IMG/VR virus record: IMGVR_UViG_3300038530_001701
Length of the DNA stretch: 14,055 nucleotides
Reading direction: 5' to 3' (one strand)
Source: a virus
Lineage: Duplodnaviria > Heunggongvirae > Uroviricota > Caudoviricetes
Both the position numbers and the translations under genes were made by a program. Within the stretch, counting starts at the first letter, position 1, and each line of letters starts with the position of its first letter. Shown in pieces: positions 281-4,414 of this stretch. The notes beneath the pieces were generated by a model, which did no database searches, was not told where the DNA came from, and saw only the letters and a list, made by a program, of their open reading frames with translations.

Positions 281-356
281 CGGTGCGTGGTGTAATTGGC
301 TGCACATCAGGCTTTTAACCTGACTGGTGAGAGTTCGAGTCTCTCCGCACCGACCA
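281..356 (+). tRNA. trnK: tRNA-Lys(UUU)
   Basis: Acceptor CGGTGCG/CGCACCG; anticodon arm TCAGG-CTTTTAA-CCTGA; T loop TTCGAGT; A73 + CCA. Confidence 0.96.
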
Positions 357-357
357 T

Positions 358-432
358 TGTTCCATAGTTCAATTGGTAGAACGCTCGGCTGATAACCGTG
401 TAATACAGGTTCGAGTCCTGTTGGAACAACCA
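358..432 (+). tRNA. trnI: tRNA-Ile(GAU)
   Basis: Acceptor TGTTCCA/TGGAACA; loop CTGATAA; T arm ACAGG-TTCGAGT-CCTGT; CCA. Confidence 0.95.
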
Positions 433-468
433 TTCTAAAGAATTTTGTTGACAGAGTTCTTCAGAATG
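431..468 (+). repeat. Spacer hairpin copy 1 (ATTCTAAA...TTCAGAAT)
   Basis: 17-position stem with one A.C mismatch and a TTGA loop; same register as 3618-3652. Confidence 0.6.
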
Positions 469-476
469 ATTAATAT

Positions 477-550
477 AGCCCTGCGGGTGGATTCCCCGAC
501 TCCGGCCTACGAAGCTGGAAGGCTAGGTTCGATTCCTAGTAGGGCTGCCA
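477..550 (+). tRNA. trnR: tRNA-Arg(ACG) with an atypical D arm
   Basis: Acceptor AGCCCTG/TAGGGCT; anticodon arm CCGGC-CTACGAA-GCTGG; T arm CTAGG-TTCGATT-CCTAG; G73 + CCA. No U8; D stem CGGG/CCCG starts directly after the acceptor. Confidence 0.85.
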
Positions 551-558
551 AATTATTT

Positions 559-634
559 ACTCGTCTGGCAGAGCGGCAGATGCACTACTCTTACAAAGTA
601 GATTAGGTAGGTTCGATTCCTACGGCGAGTACCA
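559..634 (+). tRNA. trnV: tRNA-Val(UAC)
   Basis: Acceptor ACTCGTC/GGCGAGT; CTACT-CTTACAA-AGTAG; T arm GTAGG-TTCGATT-CCTAC; CCA. Confidence 0.95.
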
Positions 635-640
635 AGTTTT

Positions 641-716
641 GGGCTGATAGTAGCAATTGGTAAAATCTCAGGCTTGCACCTTGAAGTTCCGGGTTCGAAT
701 CCCGGTCGGTCCACCA
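641..716 (+). tRNA. trnA: tRNA-Ala(UGC)
   Basis: Acceptor GGGCTGA/TCGGTCC with the G3.U70 Ala identity pair; loop CTTGCAC; A73 + CCA. Confidence 0.96.
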
Positions 717-729
717 TATTAAAAAGTAC

Positions 730-804
730 AGGTAGTCAAACTTAATGACAAGTCGCTCTTGATCTTAGGCATCTATGGTGATAAACTATATCCACTACCT
801 ACAA
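730..804 (+). ncRNA. Degenerate tRNA-like cloverleaf (pseudo-tRNA or tRNA mimic)
   Basis: 7 bp AGGTAGT/ACTACCT followed by ACAA; internal arms ACTT/AAGT, GAT-CTTAGGC-ATC and TATGG-TGATAAA-CTATA; no TTCGA T loop. Confidence 0.35.
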
Positions 805-841
805 CTGTAGTGCCGAGGCTCGCAACCCAGGTGTTGCAGTA

Positions 842-873
842 AATCTACAAATAAGTTTGATATTTTGTAGATT
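842..873 (+). other. Spacer hairpin
   Basis: Perfect 10 bp AATCTACAAA (842-851)/TTTGTAGATT (864-873). Confidence 0.5.
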
Positions 874-885
874 AACCTTATTTAA

Positions 886-960
886 GGGTCTATAGCTTAT
901 TGGTAAAAGCCACCGACTCATAATCGGTTGAATCAGGTTCGATTCCTTTTAGACCCACCA
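886..960 (+). tRNA. tRNA with CAU anticodon, probably Ile2 (lysidine type) rather than elongator Met
   Basis: Acceptor GGGTCTA/TAGACCC; ACCGA-CTCATAA-TCGGT resembles the bacterial Ile2 anticodon arm; weak T stem (TCAGG/CCTTT); CCA. Ile2 versus Met is inferred. Confidence 0.85.
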
Positions 961-966
961 ATTAAT

Positions 967-1043
967 CTCCCGGTAGCTCAATGGACTAGAGCAAAAGGTT
1001 TCTACCCTTTAGGTTGGGGGTTCGAGTCCCTCTCGGGAGGCCA
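967..1043 (+). tRNA. trnR: tRNA-Arg(UCU)
   Basis: Acceptor CTCCCGG/TCGGGAG; AAAGG-TTTCTAC-CCTTT; T loop TTCGAGT; CCA. Confidence 0.95.
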
Positions 1044-1058
1044 AATAAAGGTTGACAA

Positions 1059-1286
1059 ATGCTAGTAACTGCTTTAATATTGCTCGTAGCATTTATGATA
1101 TTACCAGCAGCACTTGGAACATTAGTTTTGTTTCATACTCTGGTTAGAAAGAAAAGTCCCCCAGTGGATGAGTCAAATAGAATCAACCATTTCAGATTAG
1201 TCTGGTTTGCGTTGACAAGGGAAGATAAGTTTGTTAAGCTCTTTCCGTGGCTCTCAAAAGATGAGTGGGACAATTTAAATAAATAA
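1059..1286 (+). CDS. Small hypothetical membrane protein (75 aa)
   Basis: Hydrophobic N-terminal segment (LILLVAFMILPAALGTLVLF) followed by basic RKK; AAGG 7 nt before the ATG; fills the gap between tRNA-Arg and the next ORF. Confidence 0.7.
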   Translation: MLVTALILLVAFMILPAALGTLVLFHTLVRKKSPPVDESNRINHFRLVWFALTREDKFVKLFPWLSKDEWDNLNK

Positions 1287-1303
1287 TTAAGGAGGATCAA
1301 CTA

Positions 1304-1819
1304 ATGGTTGACATAGAAGAAGTAAAAGAGTATATTCGTAATAGCTCAGACCAATCTAGTGTCTACATTGGTTGTGACTCAAAACGATTTGGTCGAAAGA
1401 ATAAAAGATTTGTTGCATACGCTTGCGTAGTTCTGATACACTTAGACAGTAAGCATGGAGCTAAGATGTTTAGCTTCAAACGAATCGAAAGAGATTTTGG
1501 ACAACTAAGACAAAGAATGGTTAATGAAGCTATTTTCGCTTGTGAAATTGGTTACGAGTTGAAAGAAGCTTGCGGTGATAGAACATTTGAAATTCACCTT
1601 GACATTAACCCTGACAAGAAACATGCTTCTTCTGTTGCATTGAAAGAAGCCTCTGGTATGGTCTTAGGTATGTTCGGTGAAAATCCAAAGGTTAAGCCTG
1701 AAGCGTTTGCCGCTTCTACCGCAGCAGATAAATTAGTCTGCGAATATGGTGGAAGAAAGAATTTTAAAAAATTCCTTGACAAACTGAAAAACGGTGTTAA
1801 ACTAGAGGATATGAAATAA
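1304..1819 (+). CDS. RNase H-like YkuK (DUF458) family protein
   Basis: Strong SD (AAGGAGG); motifs VYIGCDS, RMVNEA, EIHLDINP and KPEAFAASTAAD recognised as the YkuK RNase H-like pattern (from memory, no HMM run). Confidence 0.8.
   Translation: MVDIEEVKEYIRNSSDQSSVYIGCDSKRFGRKNKRFVAYACVVLIHLDSKHGAKMFSFKRIERDFGQLRQRMVNEAIFACEIGYELKEACGDRTFEIHLDINPDKKHASSVALKEASGMVLGMFGENPKVKPEAFAASTAADKLVCEYGGRKNFKKFLDKLKNGVKLEDMK
1776..1803 (+). promoter_or_regulatory. sigma70-like promoter inside the 3' end of the YkuK-like gene
   Basis: A/T tract, TTGACA (1776-1781), 16 bp spacer, TG-T-TAAACT extended -10 (1795-1803); predicted start ~1810, just upstream of the CAGCAA elements. Confidence 0.6.
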
Positions 1820-1826
1820 AGAATTA

Positions 1827-1889
1827 AGGCTGCTTTCAGCAACTTACAAAACTTCTAACCATTAATCTAGAACTTAAGTAATGCAGCCT
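1827..1889 (+). ncRNA. CAGCAA stem element, copy 1
   Basis: AGGCTGC/GCAGCCT terminal stem; TTTCAGCAA next to the 5' strand; internal TTCTA/TAGAA hairpin. Confidence 0.55.
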
Positions 1890-1899
1890 GTTAAAAATT

Positions 1900-2008
1900 T
1901 GGATGAGTACAGCAACTAAACTCAAATACTTTCTGTAAAAAAGTCCCTAACGGTTCGACTCCGGTTGCCTCGTAAGTGGTGGTCACGGGAAAGAGGCATT
2001 CTCATCCA
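1900..2008 (+). ncRNA. CAGCAA stem element, copy 2, with a permuted tRNA-like domain (Y RNA/YrlA-like hypothesis)
   Basis: TGGATGAG/CTCATCCA terminal stem; TACAGCAA; ACTTT-CTGTAAA-AAAGT anticodon-like arm; CGG-TTCGACT-CCG T arm; downstream AGTGGTGGTCAC D-loop-like segment. Confidence 0.6.
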
Positions 2009-2031
2009 GTATCTATTTTAAAAGTTTTAAA

Positions 2032-2105
2032 CTCCCTCTGGCGTAGTGGTAGCGTGTGTGGTTTGGGGCCATAAGGTGAAGGTTCGATTCCTTCGGGGGA
2101 GACCA
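2032..2105 (+). tRNA. trnP: tRNA-Pro(UGG)
   Basis: Acceptor CTCCCTC/GGGGGAG; TGTGG-TTTGGGG-CCATA; T arm GAAGG-TTCGATT-CCTTC; CCA. Confidence 0.95.
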
Positions 2106-2110
2106 ATTTT

Positions 2111-2197
2111 GGGGCAAGCGCAGAGACGGGTCGGCTGCATCGGACTGTAAATCCGATACCTTTGGTTTTCTAGGTTCGAATCCTAGTTGTCCCACCA
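2111..2197 (+). tRNA. trnY: tRNA-Tyr(GUA)
   Basis: Acceptor GGGGCAA/TTGTCCC; TCGGA-CTGTAAA-TCCGA; long variable arm; A73 + CCA. Confidence 0.94.
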
Positions 2198-2202
2198 ATT
2201 TT

Positions 2203-2269
2203 AGGATGCTTACAGCAAACATATTATATACTTTTCTATTGGAAGAAAACTAAGTAAATAATGCATCCT
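2203..2269 (+). ncRNA. CAGCAA stem element, copy 3
   Basis: AGGATGC/GCATCCT terminal stem; TTACAGCAA; internal TTTTCT/AGAAAA hairpin; 3' segment similar to copy 1. Confidence 0.55.
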
Positions 2270-2281
2270 TATTTTATTAAT

Positions 2282-2357
2282 GTTGGCGTGGCTGAATGGT
2301 CTTAGGCACTTGGCTGCAACCCTTGTCATGCAGGTTCGAATCCTGTCGCCAACTCCA
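2282..2357 (+). tRNA. trnC: tRNA-Cys(GCA)
   Basis: Acceptor GTTGGCG/CGCCAAC; loop CTGCAAC; U73 (Cys identity) + CCA; two U.U mismatches in the anticodon stem. Confidence 0.92.
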
Positions 2358-2364
2358 AAGTTTT

Positions 2365-2442
2365 GCCTTGCGAAGCATTTATCTGGATGATGTCGGCCTT
2401 TGTAACGCCGGGAATAGAGTTCGATTCTCTGCCAAGGCACCA
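2365..2442 (+). tRNA. trnT: tRNA-Thr(UGU), atypical
   Basis: Acceptor GCCTTGC/CCAAGGC (C7.C66 mismatch); CGGCC-TTTGTAA-CGCCG (C31.C39 mismatch); T arm TAGAG-TTCGATT-CTCTG; CCA. Confidence 0.8.
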
Positions 2443-2457
2443 ATTTAGGAGGTTTTT

Positions 2458-2808
2458 TTGAAAAATTGTACAAGATGTTTAGAAGAAAAACCTCTATCAG
2501 AGTATTATACAAAAGGTAATAGACTACACTCTGAATGTAAGACTTGCTTCATTAAAAGAAAAATTGAAGAAAGACAAGTTAAAAAAGCTTACATAAGGCA
2601 ATTAGCTGGTAGTCAGTGTACATTATGTGGTTACGATAGGTGTACAGACGCTTTAGAGTTACATCACAGAGACCCAACAAAGAAAGAATTCAGAGTCTCT
2701 GGTATGTGGAGTTTCTCTAAAGAGAGGATTAAAAAAGAGGTTGAAAAGTGTGTTCTACTATGTTCTAATTGTCATAGAGAAGTTCACGCAGGAATCTCTA
2801 AAGTTTAA
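2458..2808 (+). CDS. HNH endonuclease with CxxC zinc-binding motifs (116 aa, TTG start)
   Basis: AGGAGG SD at 2447-2452; CTRC, CKTC, CTLC; ALELHHRDP...CVLLCSNCHREVH HNH signature. Confidence 0.88.
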   Translation: MKNCTRCLEEKPLSEYYTKGNRLHSECKTCFIKRKIEERQVKKAYIRQLAGSQCTLCGYDRCTDALELHHRDPTKKEFRVSGMWSFSKERIKKEVEKCVLLCSNCHREVHAGISKV

Positions 2809-2810
2809 AT

Positions 2811-2886
2811 GGCGTCGTAGTTTAATGGTGAGAATACCGGGCCTTCAACCCGAGTGATGACGGTTCGAATCCGTTCGACGCTACCA
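2811..2886 (+). tRNA. trnE: tRNA-Glu(UUC) with C33
   Basis: Acceptor GGCGTCG/CGACGCT; CGGG-CCTTCAA-CCCG; T arm GACGG-TTCGAAT-CCGTT; CCA. Confidence 0.82.
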
Positions 2887-2893
2887 ATTTAAT

Positions 2894-2969
2894 GCGGCTG
2901 TAGCTCAACTGGTAGAGCACTACCCTGTCAAGGTAGAAGGTGCGGGTTCGACTCCCGTTAGTCGCGCCA
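2894..2969 (+). tRNA. trnD: tRNA-Asp(GUC)
   Basis: Acceptor GCGGCTG/TAGTCGC; CTACC-CTGTCAA-GGTAG; G73 + CCA. Confidence 0.96.
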
Positions 2970-2976
2970 CTTTTGT

Positions 2977-3052
2977 TGCGGTGTAGCTCAATTGGCAGAG
3001 CGCGTGACTTTGACTCACGAGGTTGAGAGTTCGAACCTCTCCACCGTTTCCA
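2977..3052 (+). tRNA. trnQ: tRNA-Gln(UUG)
   Basis: Acceptor TGCGGTG/CACCGTT (U1.U72 mismatch); CGTGA-CTTTGAC-TCACG; T arm GAGAG-TTCGAAC-CTCTC; CCA. Confidence 0.92.
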
Positions 3053-3069
3053 TTTAGAGTATTCTTTGT

Positions 3070-3148
3070 GGTGTACTTAGTTTAACTGGACAAAAACTCT
3101 CGGATGTGACCCGAGCAGATGCGAGTTCGAATCTCGTAGTACACCCCA
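3070..3148 (+). tRNA. trnH: tRNA-His(GUG) with encoded G-1
   Basis: 8 bp GGTGTACT/AGTACACC including G-1:C73; CTCGG-ATGTGAC-CCGAG; CCA. Confidence 0.95.
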
Positions 3149-3159
3149 AAGAGTATTTC

Positions 3160-3234
3160 GCGGAGTTGGTATAACGGTATTATTTCGGTCTTCCAAACCG
3201 TAAGATTAGGGTTCGAATCCCTAACTCCGCACCA
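3160..3234 (+). tRNA. trnG: tRNA-Gly(UCC)
   Basis: Acceptor GCGGAGT/ACTCCGC; CGGT-CTTCCAA-ACCG; A73 + CCA. Confidence 0.93.
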
Positions 3235-3241
3235 ATTTTAT

Positions 3242-3319
3242 TCCGGTATAGCAATCAAGGTGAATGCAACTCGCTGTTAACGAGTATGGAGGCAGGTTCG
3301 ATGCCTGCTACCGGAGCCA
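3242..3319 (+). tRNA. trnN: tRNA-Asn(GUU)
   Basis: Acceptor TCCGGTA/TACCGGA; ACTCG-CTGTTAA-CGAGT; G73 + CCA. Confidence 0.95.
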
Positions 3320-3325
3320 ATTTGA

Positions 3326-3403
3326 CGCAGAGTGGACTGGAGGCGGTTCCAGCTTGGTCTCATAAGCCAAATTACGCGGGTTCGAGTCCCGCCTCTGCAA
3401 CCA
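3326..3403 (+). tRNA. trnfM: Initiator-type tRNA-Met(CAU)
   Basis: C1.A72 mismatch (CGCAGAG/CTCTGCA); TTGGT-CTCATAA-GCCAA; A73 + CCA. Confidence 0.9.
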
Positions 3404-3410
3404 ATTTAAA

Positions 3411-3488
3411 GATTGTCAGGTAGCTCCTGAATGAACTGAGGATTTGCAGGAGACCCTCAGAGAGATTAACAAAAAATCCTGCCCAATT
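3411..3488 (+). ncRNA. ATGAACTGAGG pseudoknot-capable element A
   Basis: TCAGG/CCTGA hairpin; ATGAA linker; CTGAGG/CCTCAG stem; loop GCAGGA (3446-3451) complementary to TCCTGC (3477-3482); GATTG/CAATT closing helix. Confidence 0.55.
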
Positions 3489-3493
3489 TCATT

Positions 3494-3594
3494 AGTCAGT
3501 TTATTTAGAATGATTCGGAAAGAGTCCGTATGAACTGAGGGCGACACCTGCCTACTGATAGCCCTGATCAGGTGAATGGGTTAGTGGTGTGACT
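3494..3594 (+). ncRNA. ATGAACTGAGG pseudoknot-capable element B
   Basis: CGGA/TCCG hairpin; ATGAA linker; CTGA/TCAG plus GGGC/GCCC stem; loop ACACC (3544-3548) complementary to GGTGT (3586-3590); AGTC/GACT closing helix. Confidence 0.5.
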
Positions 3595-3617
3595 CGTGCA
3601 GGAGAGAACTGCACTCG

Positions 3618-3652
3618 ATTCTAAAAAGTTTTCTTAGAGAGTTTTTCAGAAT
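3618..3652 (+). repeat. Spacer hairpin copy 2 (ATTCTAAA...TTCAGAAT)
   Basis: 16-position stem with the A.C mismatch and two U.G wobbles at the same positions as in 431-468. Confidence 0.6.
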
Positions 3653-3655
3653 ACT

Positions 3656-3731
3656 GGAGCTTTGGTAGATGTGGTCACTACGTCTGTTTGAAGCACAGAA
3701 GAACACGGTTCGATTCCGTGAGGCTCCACCA
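3656..3731 (+). tRNA. trnF: tRNA-Phe(GAA)
   Basis: Acceptor GGAGCTT/AGGCTCC; TCTGT-TTGAAGC-ACAGA; CCA. Confidence 0.95.
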
Positions 3732-3737
3732 AAATTC

Positions 3738-3829
3738 GGAAGATAATCCTACAAGGTTGTAGGGAACGCCTGCTAAGCGTGTCGCATTGTGATGAACAGT
3801 GTCTGGATCGTTACCAGTATCTTCCTCCA
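3738..3829 (+). tRNA. trnS: tRNA-Ser(GCU) with a non-canonical T loop
   Basis: Acceptor GGAAGAT/ATCTTCC; ACGC-CTGCTAA-GCGT; long variable arm; T loop ATCGTTA; extended D stem CCTAC/GTAGG; U73 + CCA. Confidence 0.88.
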
Positions 3830-3836
3830 ATTTTAT

Positions 3837-3913
3837 GCTCAGGTGCGCTAATTGGCAAAGCGGTAAGATTTAGAATCTTATGAGTGTGGGTTCGACTCCC
3901 ACCCTGAGTACCA
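3837..3913 (+). tRNA. trnL: tRNA-Leu(UAG), short variable loop
   Basis: Acceptor GCTCAGG/CCTGAGT; TAAGA-TTTAGAA-TCTTA; A73 + CCA. Confidence 0.94.
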
Positions 3914-3920
3914 TTTTAAT

Positions 3921-3999
3921 GCTGGTGTGGCCTAATTGGCATAGGCGGCTCTCTCAAAAGGAGTGACATTTGTCGGTTCGACTCCGACCACCAGTACCA
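3921..3999 (+). tRNA. trnL: tRNA-Leu(CAA), short variable loop
   Basis: Acceptor GCTGGTG/CACCAGT; GCTCT-CTCAAAA-GGAGT; A73 + CCA. Confidence 0.92.
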
Positions 4000-4015
4000 G
4001 AACAAAGGATAATTT

Positions 4016-4168
4016 ATAAGTATCTTTGAAAAACGTCAAAAAGAAAAAGACGAAAAACGTATGTCTGACTATAAGAATCCAGACTACGCTAAAGGTATGG
4101 AAGAATTATTCAAACTTGTTCGTGAAGGTAAAATACAAGTACCTCAAAGAGCAAGATTAAAGTTTTAA
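4016..4168 (+). CDS. Small basic hypothetical protein (50 aa from an ATA start; 35 aa from ATG 4061)
   Basis: Open frame SIFEKRQKEKDEKRMSDYKNPDYAKGMEELFKLVREGKIQVPQRARLKF* fills the spacer between two tRNAs; AAGGA SD (4005-4009) lies 6 nt before ATA; in-frame TAA at 4010-4012. Confidence 0.55.
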   Translation: MSIFEKRQKEKDEKRMSDYKNPDYAKGMEELFKLVREGKIQVPQRARLKF

Positions 4169-4169
4169 T

Positions 4170-4258
4170 GGAAGGTAGCGGCTCGTGGGAGCCAATCGGT
4201 CTTGAAAACCGACATGCCAGTGGAAACGCTGTCAGTTCGACTCTGATTCCTTCCTCCA
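4170..4258 (+). tRNA. trnS: tRNA-Ser(UGA)
   Basis: Acceptor GGAAGGT/TCCTTCC; TCGGT-CTTGAAA-ACCGA; long variable arm; CCA. Confidence 0.93.
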
Positions 4259-4265
4259 ATTCTAT

Positions 4266-4336
4266 GCAGGACGATCTGGTGATCAAGCGAGATTCCAAAC
4301 CTTGCTAGTAGGGTTCGATACCTTAGTTCTGTGCCA
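4266..4336 (+). tRNA. trnW: tRNA-Trp(CCA), 71 nt with a reduced D arm
   Basis: Acceptor GCAGGAC/GTTCTGT; loop TTCCAAA; T arm TAGGG-TTCGATA-CCTTA; G73 + CCA; D region only GATCTGGTGATC. Confidence 0.8.
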
Positions 4337-4337
4337 T

Positions 4338-4414
4338 GCTCCGGTACGCTAATTGGCAAAGCGGGGAGATTTAAAATCTCTTGATTGTGAGTTCGACTCT
4401 CACTCGGAGTACCA
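4338..4414 (+). tRNA. trnL: tRNA-Leu(UAA), short variable loop
   Basis: Acceptor GCTCCGG/TCGGAGT; GGAGA-TTTAAAA-TCTCT; A73 + CCA. Confidence 0.94.

What the first reader, a model, noticed from the sequence alone, without database searches (positions are those of the whole stretch)
3411..3594. Two tandem pseudoknot-capable RNA elements sharing ATGAACTGAGG
Seen: the ~250 nt gap between tRNA-fMet and tRNA-Phe has no ORF in the track but carries an identical 11-mer ATGAACTGAGG twice (3431-3441, 3530-3540) in the same structural context. In both, a small hairpin with a 5-nt loop (TCAGG/CCTGA; CGGA/TCCG) is followed by an ATGAA linker and a CTGAGG-initiated stem. The loop of that stem is complementary to a segment next to the 3' closing helix (GCAGGA/TCCTGC; ACACC/GGTGT). 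Primary sequences otherwise differ. Inference: a conserved three-way junction plus pseudoknot fold, which could be a ligand-binding RNA, a self-cleaving processing element, or a protein decoy. Context: the rV5-like phage phiTE uses pseudoknotted pseudo-ToxI RNAs against ToxIN, and HDV-like theta ribozymes occur next to phage tRNAs. I could not fit either known fold here.
Basis: partly seen in the sequence, partly recalled or inferred. Interest (0 to 1): 0.8.

Follow-up and report, generated by a model that had tools for sequence, protein, structure and literature searches.

The report
Two unrelated RNA cassettes in phage tRNA array
The gap between two tRNA genes of this phage holds two different conserved folded RNAs, a new tRNA-sized pseudoknot RNA ending in CCA and one copy of a motif found in many phages, and not two copies of one fold.

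Summary
The 11-mer ATGAACTGAGG does occur twice, at 3431 and 3530. Only the first copy is conserved in relatives.

**Module A (3416-3485).** It has a covarying hairpin and an invariant AUGAACUGAG..CUCAGNGAGAU..ACAAAA core. It also has an H-type pseudoknot seen in 12 different complementary versions, followed by CCA, or ACA in a few. It has 33 distinct homologs, all in phage or metagenome contigs. In tRNA arrays it sits 4-15 nt after one tRNA and 0-5 nt before the next. It is absent from Rfam, from GenBank phages and from the one-genome-per-species prokaryote collection scanned by pattern.

**Module B (3541-3614).** This is a single copy of a widespread phage motif: GNGACACCUKCC, a variable domain, AGUGGUGUGAC, then a covarying hairpin with a GAGAGA loop. 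I found more than 150 copies, in arrays of up to five, and in prophages of several phyla. It is not in Rfam. This scan has noted what appears to be the same motif before on other DNA.

**The second 11-mer.** It is the 3' strand of a clade-specific hairpin in front of module B.

**Reading.** The RNAs are real, and the pseudoknot is real for module A. The idea of two copies of one fold is rejected. Function is untested. My best guess is that both are co-processed small RNAs like T4 rnaC/rnaD, with module A mimicking a tRNA acceptor arm.

The parts
3326..3403 (+). Upstream tRNA-Met(CAU) ending in CCA. It forms the left boundary of the cassette region.
   Evidence: ARAGORN and Rfam tRNA model.
3416..3430 (+). 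Module A hairpin H1: UCAGG-UAGCU-CCUGA.
   Evidence: Four of 5 pairs change on both sides across 33 distinct homologs, and 0 of 500 shuffles reach the score. The loop reads U, then AGC/CGC/CAU/AAU, then one more base (G, U or A).
3431..3435 (+). Module A linker AUGAA. This is the first half of the conserved 11-mer.
   Evidence: UGAA is invariant and the leading A nearly invariant in alignments A3 and A5.
3436..3460 (+). Module A stem S1 (CUGAGG 3436-3441 with CCUCAG 3455-3460). Its loop carries the 5' strand of the pseudoknot, GCAGGA at 3446-3451.
   Evidence: The inner five pairs (CUGAG/CUCAG) are essentially invariant in sequence and always complementary; the sixth pair forms in 17 of 33 distinct rows. 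It appears in the minimum-free-energy fold.
3461..3476 (+). Module A A-rich connector AGAGAUUAACAAAAAA (loop 3 of the pseudoknot).
   Evidence: GAGAU..ACAAAA is invariant or nearly so in all homologs.
3477..3485 (+). Module A pseudoknot 3' strand UCCUGC (3477-3482) followed by CCA (3483-3485).
   Evidence: There are 12 distinct complementary loop/tail versions. In a permutation test 0 of 5000 reach the observed value. CCA follows in about 17 of 21 classes and ACA in 4.
3496..3538 (+). Clade-specific hairpin P0 in front of module B. The outer helix is UCAGUUUAU (3496-3504) with AUGAACUGA (3530-3538), and it encloses a small inner hairpin. It contains the second copy of the 11-mer.
   Evidence: Fold result. 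Relatives have a helix at the same place with other sequences: CCAACAA/UUGUUGG, AGCAUC/GAUGCU and AAGG/CCUU.
3541..3593 (+). Module B core. The P1 helix is G3541 with C3593 and ACACC 3544-3548 with GGUGU 3586-3590. Junction residues are UGCC 3549-3552 and AGU 3583-3585. The variable domain spans 3553-3582.
   Evidence: The covariance model R1 scores 51.7 bits, E 5e-11. The blocks GACACCUKCC and AGUGGUGUGAC are invariant in at least 119 viral stretches.
3596..3614 (+). Module B hairpin GUGCAG-GAGAGAA-CUGCAC, with the conserved GAGAG loop.
   Evidence: All 5 pairs covary, with 185 cells changed on both sides, and 0 of 500 shuffles reach the observed score for the whole structure.
3618..3652 (+). 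AU-rich hairpin just before tRNA-Phe. It is present in some relatives and precisely absent in others.
   Evidence: Alignment A1 and fold. Its thermodynamic support is weak (z -0.35).
3656..3731 (+). Downstream tRNA-Phe(GAA). It forms the right boundary.

Best explanation
**What is there.** The spacer between tRNA-Met and tRNA-Phe is a string of separate RNA cassettes inserted into the phage's polycistronic tRNA operon. It is not a duplicated element.

**Cassette A (3416-3485).** It belongs to a previously uncatalogued phage RNA family of tRNA size. The order of parts is a hairpin, the invariant AUGAA, and then an H-type pseudoknot. The two stems of the pseudoknot (5-6 bp and 4-7 bp) can stack into a helix of about 9-13 bp that ends in single-stranded CCA. 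This is the geometry of a tRNA acceptor/T arm, as in plant-virus tRNA-like structures.

**Cassette B (3541-3614, with its clade-specific leader hairpin 3496-3538).** It is one copy of a pan-phage motif. A sequence-invariant helix (GNGACACC/GGUGUGAC) closes a variable domain and abuts a covarying hairpin with a GAGAGA loop.

**Shown.** Both folds, their conservation, their independence from each other, and their cassette-like presence or absence are shown.

**Inferred.** Both are transcribed with the tRNAs. The host tRNA-processing enzymes (RNase P at the next tRNA, RNase E and exonucleases in the AU-rich spacers) release them as small stable RNAs, like T4 rnaC and rnaD. Cassette A is handled through its CCA-ended pseudoknot by enzymes that read tRNA 3' ends; RNase P can cut such pseudoknots in loop 1. 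Cassette B acts as a portable module that binds a universally conserved host machine. What each RNA finally does is not known.
For: **Independence and cassette behaviour**
- Relatives found through the terminase gene show every combination: no insert at all (L002, the two tRNAs 5 nt apart), B only (L009), A+B, and A+B+B (L006).
- The window has one copy of each. A scores 84 bits and B scores 51.7 bits.
- The second 11-mer region scores 8.4 bits with the A model.
- Other lineages that carry A lack B.

**Module A**
- There are 43 hits, 33 of them distinct.
- H1 covaries.
- The pseudoknot exists in 12 complementary versions, with 0 of 5000 permutations reaching the observed value.
- CCA or ACA always follows the pseudoknot.
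- In nine other tRNA-array contexts it lies 4-15 nt after a tRNA, where one is called upstream, and 0-5 nt before the next tRNA or tRNA-like 5' end; the downstream tRNA is ARAGORN-called in six of the nine and read by eye in three.
- In the window, CCAATTT flanks it on both sides, as it does the tRNAs.
- ACCA is kept even where neighbouring tRNA genes lack an encoded CCA.

**Module B**
- At least 119 viral stretches carry it, and there are 155 model hits in 100 loci.
- The hairpin covaries.
- G-U pairs fit the + strand.

**Transcription and precedents**
- There is no promoter-like or terminator-like site inside the gap.
- RNase P cleaves H-type pseudoknots in loop 1 if they carry 3' RCCA (PMC12710915).
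- T4 encodes two small stable RNAs of unknown function directly after tRNA-Arg (PMC9697503).
Against: - No RNA data could be consulted.
- The window's tail is CCCA rather than the RCCA preferred by RNase P. Four module-A classes have ACA instead of CCA.
- The nucleotide before the predicted cleavage site is U in only about 5 of 14 classes.
- About 30 nt of module A are invariant. That is more than a shape mimic needs, and it fits a catalytic or ligand- or protein-binding core equally well.
- Several module-A copies lie outside tRNA arrays.
- Only 14 of 156 module-B copies have a tRNA within 120 nt downstream.
- Folding energies are not unusual (z -0.9 to -1.8).
Confidence: 0.55

Rival explanations
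1. Cassette A, and possibly B, is a new class of self-cleaving ribozyme. It would cut the tRNA-array transcript next to itself and free the neighbouring tRNA ends, as the HDV-like theta ribozymes are proposed to do.
For: - The pattern is typical of ribozymes: invariant junction nucleotides surrounded by freely covarying helices.
- The position between tRNAs is tight, 4-15 nt after one and 0-5 nt before the next.
- Conservation of B begins exactly at the first nucleotide of P1, and units abut head to tail in arrays.
- There is a precedent: theta ribozymes lie 3' of phage tRNAs (PMC10879173).
Against: - No Rfam ribozyme model matches at E<=10.
- The topology of A (hairpin plus a single H-type pseudoknot) differs from the nested double pseudoknot of HDV-like ribozymes.
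- No cleavage data exist.
- RNase P already explains 5' processing of the tRNA downstream.
Confidence: 0.2
2. Cassette B is a cis-acting RNA that binds RNA polymerase, like HK022 put. It would keep transcription going through long untranslated or terminator-containing stretches, here the roughly 4-kb tRNA operon.
For: - The architecture is two adjacent stem-loops, the same general plan as put (PMC9378689).
- Near-identical sequence in prophages of several phyla suggests a universal partner.
- In Cronobacter phage CS01 the core lies just behind a sigma70-like promoter and upstream of the terminase genes.
- It follows major-capsid genes in 68 of 143 loci.
Against: - There is no sequence similarity to put, and no model was available to test membership.
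- Arrays of 4-5 abutting units with different, recurrent variable domains are not expected of an antiterminator.
- No terminator-like site lies downstream on the + strand of the window's tRNA array beyond 2376.
Confidence: 0.15
3. The two elements are tandem copies of one pseudoknotted fold defined by the shared ATGAACTGAGG, acting as a ligand sensor, a ribozyme pair, or a ToxI-like decoy array.
For: The exact 11-mer repeat is uncommon by chance (234 of 20000 shuffles). Both regions contain stems next to it.
Against: - The second region scores 8.4 bits against 84 bits with the module-A model.
- Relatives read TGATGG, TAGGGG or TGGAGG in place of the second 11-mer.
- In the closest relative only ATGAAC is shared there. 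The GG belongs to the conserved start of module B, so only about 3 nt of the identity need chance.
- In the tRNA region, two of the three ORFs scanned hit other Pfam families (RNaseH_like, HNH), the third hits none, and none resembles ToxN.
Confidence: 0.03
4. The gap holds decayed tRNA genes or neutral spacer, and the structures are leftovers without function.
For: - Default ARAGORN does miss two real tRNAs elsewhere in the window.
- Folding energies in the gap are unremarkable.
Against: - No cloverleaf is found even at relaxed threshold.
- Both modules are conserved with compensatory changes across very divergent contigs.
Confidence: 0.02

Closest known systems
Phage T4 rnaC and rnaD (species 1 and species 2 RNAs)
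   Same: - They are small stable non-tRNA RNAs encoded inside a phage tRNA cluster. rnaD starts 1 nt after tRNA-Arg and rnaC follows 6 nt later.
- Their function is still unknown (PMC9697503).
- The 5' hairpin of rnaD, CCGG-GUCGCUA-CCGG, matches 14 of 15 nt of the H1 hairpin of one module-A group, CCGG-UUCGCUA-CCGG.
   Different: - Neither covariance model hits the T4 region (best 6.6 and 2.7 bits).
- rnaD appears to be a nested fold without the AUGAACUGAG core.
- The ACCA end of T4 rnaD is not conserved in other T-even phages.
Plant-virus tRNA-like structures (TYMV type) and pseudoknot model substrates of RNase P
   Same: An acceptor-like helix is built by pairing the 3' strand with a hairpin loop, and it ends in CCA. 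RNase P cuts such pseudoknots in loop 1 when RCCA is present (PMC12710915).
   Different: - There is no D- or T-loop mimicry.
- No Rfam tRNA-like model matches.
- The RNA is encoded in a DNA phage inside a tRNA array.
- The window's tail is CCCA, not RCCA.
- Aminoacylation and RNase P cleavage are untested.
HDV-like theta ribozymes next to phage tRNAs (PMC10879173)
   Same: They are small pseudoknotted RNAs placed directly beside phage tRNA genes, with a proposed role in tRNA end processing.
   Different: - Theta ribozymes have a nested double pseudoknot. Module A has a hairpin plus a single H-type pseudoknot, and module B has no pseudoknot.
- No HDV-type Rfam model matches.
HK022 put RNA
   Same: Module B is also made of two adjacent stem-loops of about 70-100 nt on the sense strand of phage operons.
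   Different: There is no sequence similarity. Module B occurs in multi-unit arrays, and its binding to RNA polymerase is untested.
The 'GAGAGA-hairpin' phage motif noted earlier in this scan (e1-3505758, e1-5349263, e1-3165478)
   Same: By description it is the same object as module B: a small two-hairpin motif with a GAGAGA loop, widespread in phages and absent from Rfam.
   Different: Those notes described leader and operon-end contexts. Here it sits inside a tRNA array, with a clade-specific extra hairpin. I did not see their sequences, so identity is inferred from the description.

Membership tests
Module A family (model R2, built here) | H1 hairpin, AUGAACUGAG, CUCAGNGAGAU..ACAAAA, loop-to-tail pseudoknot, and an (N)CCA tail. 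| tested here: met
   Region 3406-3490 scores 84 bits, E 6e-22. All features can be read in the sequence.
Module A family, second 11-mer element as a second member | The same model over 3515-3571. | tested here: not met
   It scores 8.4 bits, E about 0.9, as a partial match only.
Module B family (model R1, built here; the scan's GAGAGA-hairpin motif) | GNGACACCUKCC, a variable domain, AGUGGUGUGAC, then a hairpin with a GAGAG loop. | tested here: met
   Region 3537-3626 scores 51.7 bits, E 5e-11.
tRNA | A cloverleaf recognised by ARAGORN or by Rfam RF00005. | tested here: not met
   Nothing is found in 3404-3655 with default settings or at the relaxed threshold, which did recover tRNA-Ser(GCU) and tRNA-Trp elsewhere.
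HDV-like / theta ribozyme | A nested double pseudoknot (P1, P1.1, P2, P3). | tested here: not met
   The helix order in module A is hairpin, then S1-S2-S1'-S2', with no P3 or P4 in place. No Rfam hit at E<=10.
HDV-like / theta ribozyme | Self-cleavage at the 5' end of P1. | not testable with these tools
   This needs in vitro transcription.
ToxI / pseudo-ToxI | Tandem direct repeats of a unit of about 36 nt. | tested here: not met
   Only an 11-mer is shared, and the two regions otherwise differ.
ToxI / pseudo-ToxI | An adjacent ToxN-type endoribonuclease gene. | tested here: not met
   Of the three ORFs scanned in the tRNA region, two hit RNaseH_like and HNH and one hits nothing in Pfam. There is no ToxN match.
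tRNA-like structure with pseudoknotted acceptor | A 3' strand paired to a hairpin loop, stacked on that hairpin's stem, with a single-stranded CCA end. | tested here: met
   The pseudoknot covaries. S1 plus S2 give 9-13 bp. CCA follows in most classes.
tRNA-like structure with pseudoknotted acceptor | Recognition by RNase P, the CCA-adding enzyme or an aminoacyl-tRNA synthetase. | not testable with these tools
   Biochemical assays are required.
T4 rnaD | Sequence or structure homology. | tested here: inconclusive
   The models give no hit, but the 5' hairpin is near-identical to one H1 variant and the position after a tRNA is the same.
HK022 put | Binding to the beta' zinc-binding domain and antitermination in cis. 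| not testable with these tools
   Only the two-stem-loop architecture could be compared.

The most novel reading that the evidence does not exclude
Module A founds a new class of phage RNA that impersonates the CCA-bearing acceptor arm of a tRNA by means of a pseudoknot. On one reading it serves as a decoy or competitive substrate for host enzymes or defence toxins that attack tRNA 3' ends. On the other it is a new self-cleaving ribozyme class that punctuates tRNA arrays. T4's 50-year-old orphan species 2 RNA would then be a distant relative.
Probability: 0.2. Interest if true: 0.85.

Novelty: new variant of a known kind. Interest (0 to 1): 0.62.

Why it matters
- Phage tRNA arrays are now seen as counter-measures to tRNA-targeting host defences. 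Non-tRNA RNAs embedded in them have been unexplained since T4 species 1 and 2 were found.
- Module A is a well-supported, uncatalogued RNA family with a clear and testable architecture, a pseudoknot that presents a CCA end.
- Module B is among the most widespread unnamed phage RNA motifs. It has near-identical sequence in prophages of several bacterial phyla.
- Module B also occurs in cultured phages (Cronobacter CS01, Acinetobacter Alexa, Pseudomonas Medea1, Synechococcus MinM2), so its function can be tested directly at the bench.

Tried and rejected
- **Rfam.** I ran the gathering threshold on the window and E<=10 on 3380-3680. I also scanned a four-unit module-B array and eight module-A loci. 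Only tRNAs and one chance hit came back.
- **tRNA.** ARAGORN found nothing in the gap with default or relaxed settings.
- **Coding.** The only ORFs in the gap are 29 aa (3444-3533, TTG start) and 43 aa on the minus strand. Relatives differ there by indels and whole-helix replacements, so I dropped this reading.
- **Internal promoter.** The TTGACA inside module A's connector has no matching -10 in the window, and a matching -10 appears only in some relatives by eye. I treat it as incidental.
- **HDV-like and pistol-like mapping of module A.** I attempted this by hand and the helix order does not fit.
- **Close relatives in GenBank phages.** None were found for the window or for module A.
- **Module A in the one-genome-per-species prokaryote collection.** The pattern gave no match.
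- **Supplements of the 10,006-csRNA paper.** They are not held, so I could not check whether either module is among those unnamed candidates.
- **Closing helix for module A.** I looked for pairing between its 5' flank and the CCA tail and found none that is consistent.
- **Module B tertiary pairing.** I looked for a partner of its GAGAG loop and found none.

Full report
**Setting.** The window is a tailed-phage fragment. It carries terminase large subunit, portal, protease, major head and tail sheath genes from 4511 onward. These follow an array of 24 tRNAs called by ARAGORN at 281-4414. Relaxed ARAGORN adds tRNA-Ser(GCU) at 3741-3829 and tRNA-Trp at 4266-4336. The finding lies in the 252-nt gap between tRNA-Met (3326-3403) and tRNA-Phe (3656-3731). 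No close relative exists in the GenBank phage collection. No genome or sequencing runs were available.

**Observation.** ATGAACTGAGG occurs exactly at 3431 and 3530. An exact 11-mer repeat appears in 234 of 20000 dinucleotide shuffles of the gap. The stems named for the first element are all present. Rfam finds nothing in the gap at E<=10, and relaxed ARAGORN finds no tRNA there.

**Relatives.** The terminase gene recovered 20 related viral contigs. Their tRNA arrays are collinear with the window, but the Met-Phe gap varies:
- 5 nt in L002, with no insert;
- 137 nt in L009;
- 211-279 nt in most;
- 469 nt in L006.

The alignment resolves two modules. L009 has only the second, and L006 has the first plus two copies of the second. 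In the window, CCAATTT (a tRNA 3' end plus spacer) stands on both sides of the first module. That module therefore ends as the tRNA genes do.

**Module A (3416-3485).**
- A pattern scan of viral contigs and metagenomes gave divergent members.
- A covariance model (R2) finds 43 copies, 33 of them distinct, at 49-92 bits. It finds one copy in the window at 84 bits.
- Hairpin H1 covaries at 4 of 5 pairs, with 30 cells changed on both sides. None of 500 shuffles reach the score.
- The inner five pairs of stem S1 (CUGAG/CUCAG) are invariant.
- The pairing of the loop with the tail exists in 12 distinct complementary versions. Examples are GCAGGA/UCCUGC, GCAGGC/GCCUGC, UCGG/CCGA, ACAGG/CCUGU, UGAGGG/CCCUCA, GCGGGC/GCCCGC, CGGGG/CCCCG, UGCG/CGCA and UCCC/GGGA.
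- Reassigning tails among loops never reaches the observed complementarity (0 of 5000).
- The helix is followed by CCA or ACCA in most classes and by ACA in four.
- In arrays the module lies 4-15 nt after a tRNA, where one is called upstream, and 0-5 nt before the next tRNA or tRNA-like 5' end (six ARAGORN-called, three read by eye). This holds in L142, L156, L166, L148, L150, L137, L154, L171 and L174. It keeps ACCA where neighbouring tRNA genes lack an encoded CCA.
- Other copies lie between ordinary phage genes.
- The pattern is absent from the one-genome-per-species prokaryote collection and module A from GenBank phages at BLAST sensitivity.
- The connectivity from H1 onward resembles the 3' two-thirds of a tRNA. 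H1 would be an arm with a U-led loop, AUGAA a 5-nt linker, and S1 a stem. The 3' strand then pairs back into the S1 loop to make an acceptor-like helix with a CCA tail. This tRNA reading is my inference.

**Module B (3541-3614).**
- A model (R1) finds one copy in the window at 51.7 bits. It finds 155 copies in 100 loci, often as 3-5 abutting units, for example L029 410-899 and L077 4011-4358.
- The hairpin with the GAGAGA loop covaries at all five pairs (185 cells). The closing helix is almost invariant.
- 68 of 143 loci place it right after one family of major-capsid genes.
- 14 of 156 copies have a tRNA within 120 nt downstream.
- It occurs in 26 prokaryote genomes, mostly metagenome bins. 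They include Bryobacteraceae, Pseudomonadales, Burkholderiales, Chthoniobacter, Acidimicrobiales, Planctomycetes, Spirochaetes and Flavobacteriales.
- It is found unannotated in cultured phages such as Cronobacter CS01, where it follows a promoter-like site upstream of the terminase genes.
- Rfam has no match.
- Earlier notes of this scan describe what appears to be the same motif on other DNA.
- Module-A loci of other lineages lack module B.

**The second 11-mer.** In the window AUGAACUGA (3530-3538) pairs with UCAGUUUAU (3496-3504) to make a hairpin directly in front of module B. Relatives have a helix at that place with unrelated sequences. The closest relative shares only ATGAAC there. The final GG belongs to the conserved start of module B in this clade. 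The 11-nt identity therefore needs about three chance matches and is not a shared functional core.

**Mechanism.**
- *Shown:* two real, unrelated and independently distributed RNA structures on the + strand, inside a stretch with no promoter-like or terminator-like site.
- *Inferred:* co-transcription with the tRNAs and release by RNase P, RNase E and exonucleases as small RNAs. T4's rnaD and rnaC are the precedent. They follow tRNA-Arg by 1 nt and 6 nt, and their function is still unknown.
- RNase P is known to cut H-type pseudoknots in loop 1 when a 3' RCCA is present. For module A this predicts a cut before G3446.
- *Against this reading:* the window has CCCA, some members have ACA, and about 30 invariant nucleotides suggest a more specific core.
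- A new self-cleaving ribozyme (for A or B) and a put-like polymerase-binding role (for B) remain live rivals.

**T4 link.** The 5' hairpin of rnaD, CCGG-GUCGCUA-CCGG, is nearly identical to the H1 of one module-A group. It sits at the same distance from a tRNA. The models do not match T4, however. The alignment of T-even rnaD points to a nested fold whose ACCA end is not conserved.

**Verdict.** Module A is a new, well-supported RNA family. Module B is a further occurrence of a widespread uncatalogued motif. Function is untested for both.

Noticed in passing
window 3741-3829 and 4266-4336: tRNA-Ser(GCU) and tRNA-Trp(CCA) are missed by default ARAGORN and by Rfam at gathering score, but are found with a relaxed ARAGORN threshold. 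The relative L003 has a tRNA-Ser(gct) that aligns there at 75% identity.
   Followed up: partly
window 1304-1819 (+): A 171-aa ORF inside the tRNA array matches Pfam PF04308 (RNaseH_like, E 2e-23) and the function-unknown phrog_11311. An HNH endonuclease ORF lies at 2458-2808.
   Followed up: no
L206 2554-2672 (-) = phage T4 rnaD: T4 species 2 RNA begins with the hairpin CCGG-GUCGCUA-CCGG, 9 nt after tRNA-Arg. It matches 14 of 15 nt of the module-A H1 hairpin of the L147 group. The first 45 nt or so and the last 30 nt or so of rnaD are invariant among six T-even phages, while the middle is replaced.
   Followed up: partly
L029 410-899; L077 4011-4358; L076 5098-5381; L055 6790-7132: Module B forms head-to-tail arrays of 4-5 units. 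The variable domains differ within an array, but the same subtypes recur in different phages, rather like isoacceptor sets.
   Followed up: partly
L002 4493-4651: A relative with 91% identical terminase has tRNA-Met and tRNA-Phe only 5 nt apart, so the whole 250-nt insert is dispensable in that lineage.
   Followed up: yes
window 3618-3652: The AU-rich hairpin before tRNA-Phe is present in the window, L003, L006, L007 and L008. It is cleanly absent in L009, L013, L014, L015 and L020, where ATTC is followed directly by AGAAT. This looks like a small insertion or deletion between ATTC repeats.
   Followed up: no
window 717-885 and 4000-4169: Two further gaps of about 170 nt in the tRNA array have no tRNA even at the relaxed threshold and no hit to either model. 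Their content is unexplained.
   Followed up: no
L150 3755-4053: ARAGORN calls a tmRNA (tag GSSNQALGLGLV) overlapping a tRNA-Ser call in a metagenomic phage-like tRNA array that also carries module A.
   Followed up: no
L204 1420-1540 (Cronobacter phage CS01): TTGACT-17 nt-TAAGCT (read by eye) is followed about 50 nt later by the module-B core: GAC, then hairpin AGCCGG-GAGAGA-CCGGC, then ACAAAC. It lies in a 380-nt unannotated gap upstream of the small terminase gene.
   Followed up: partly
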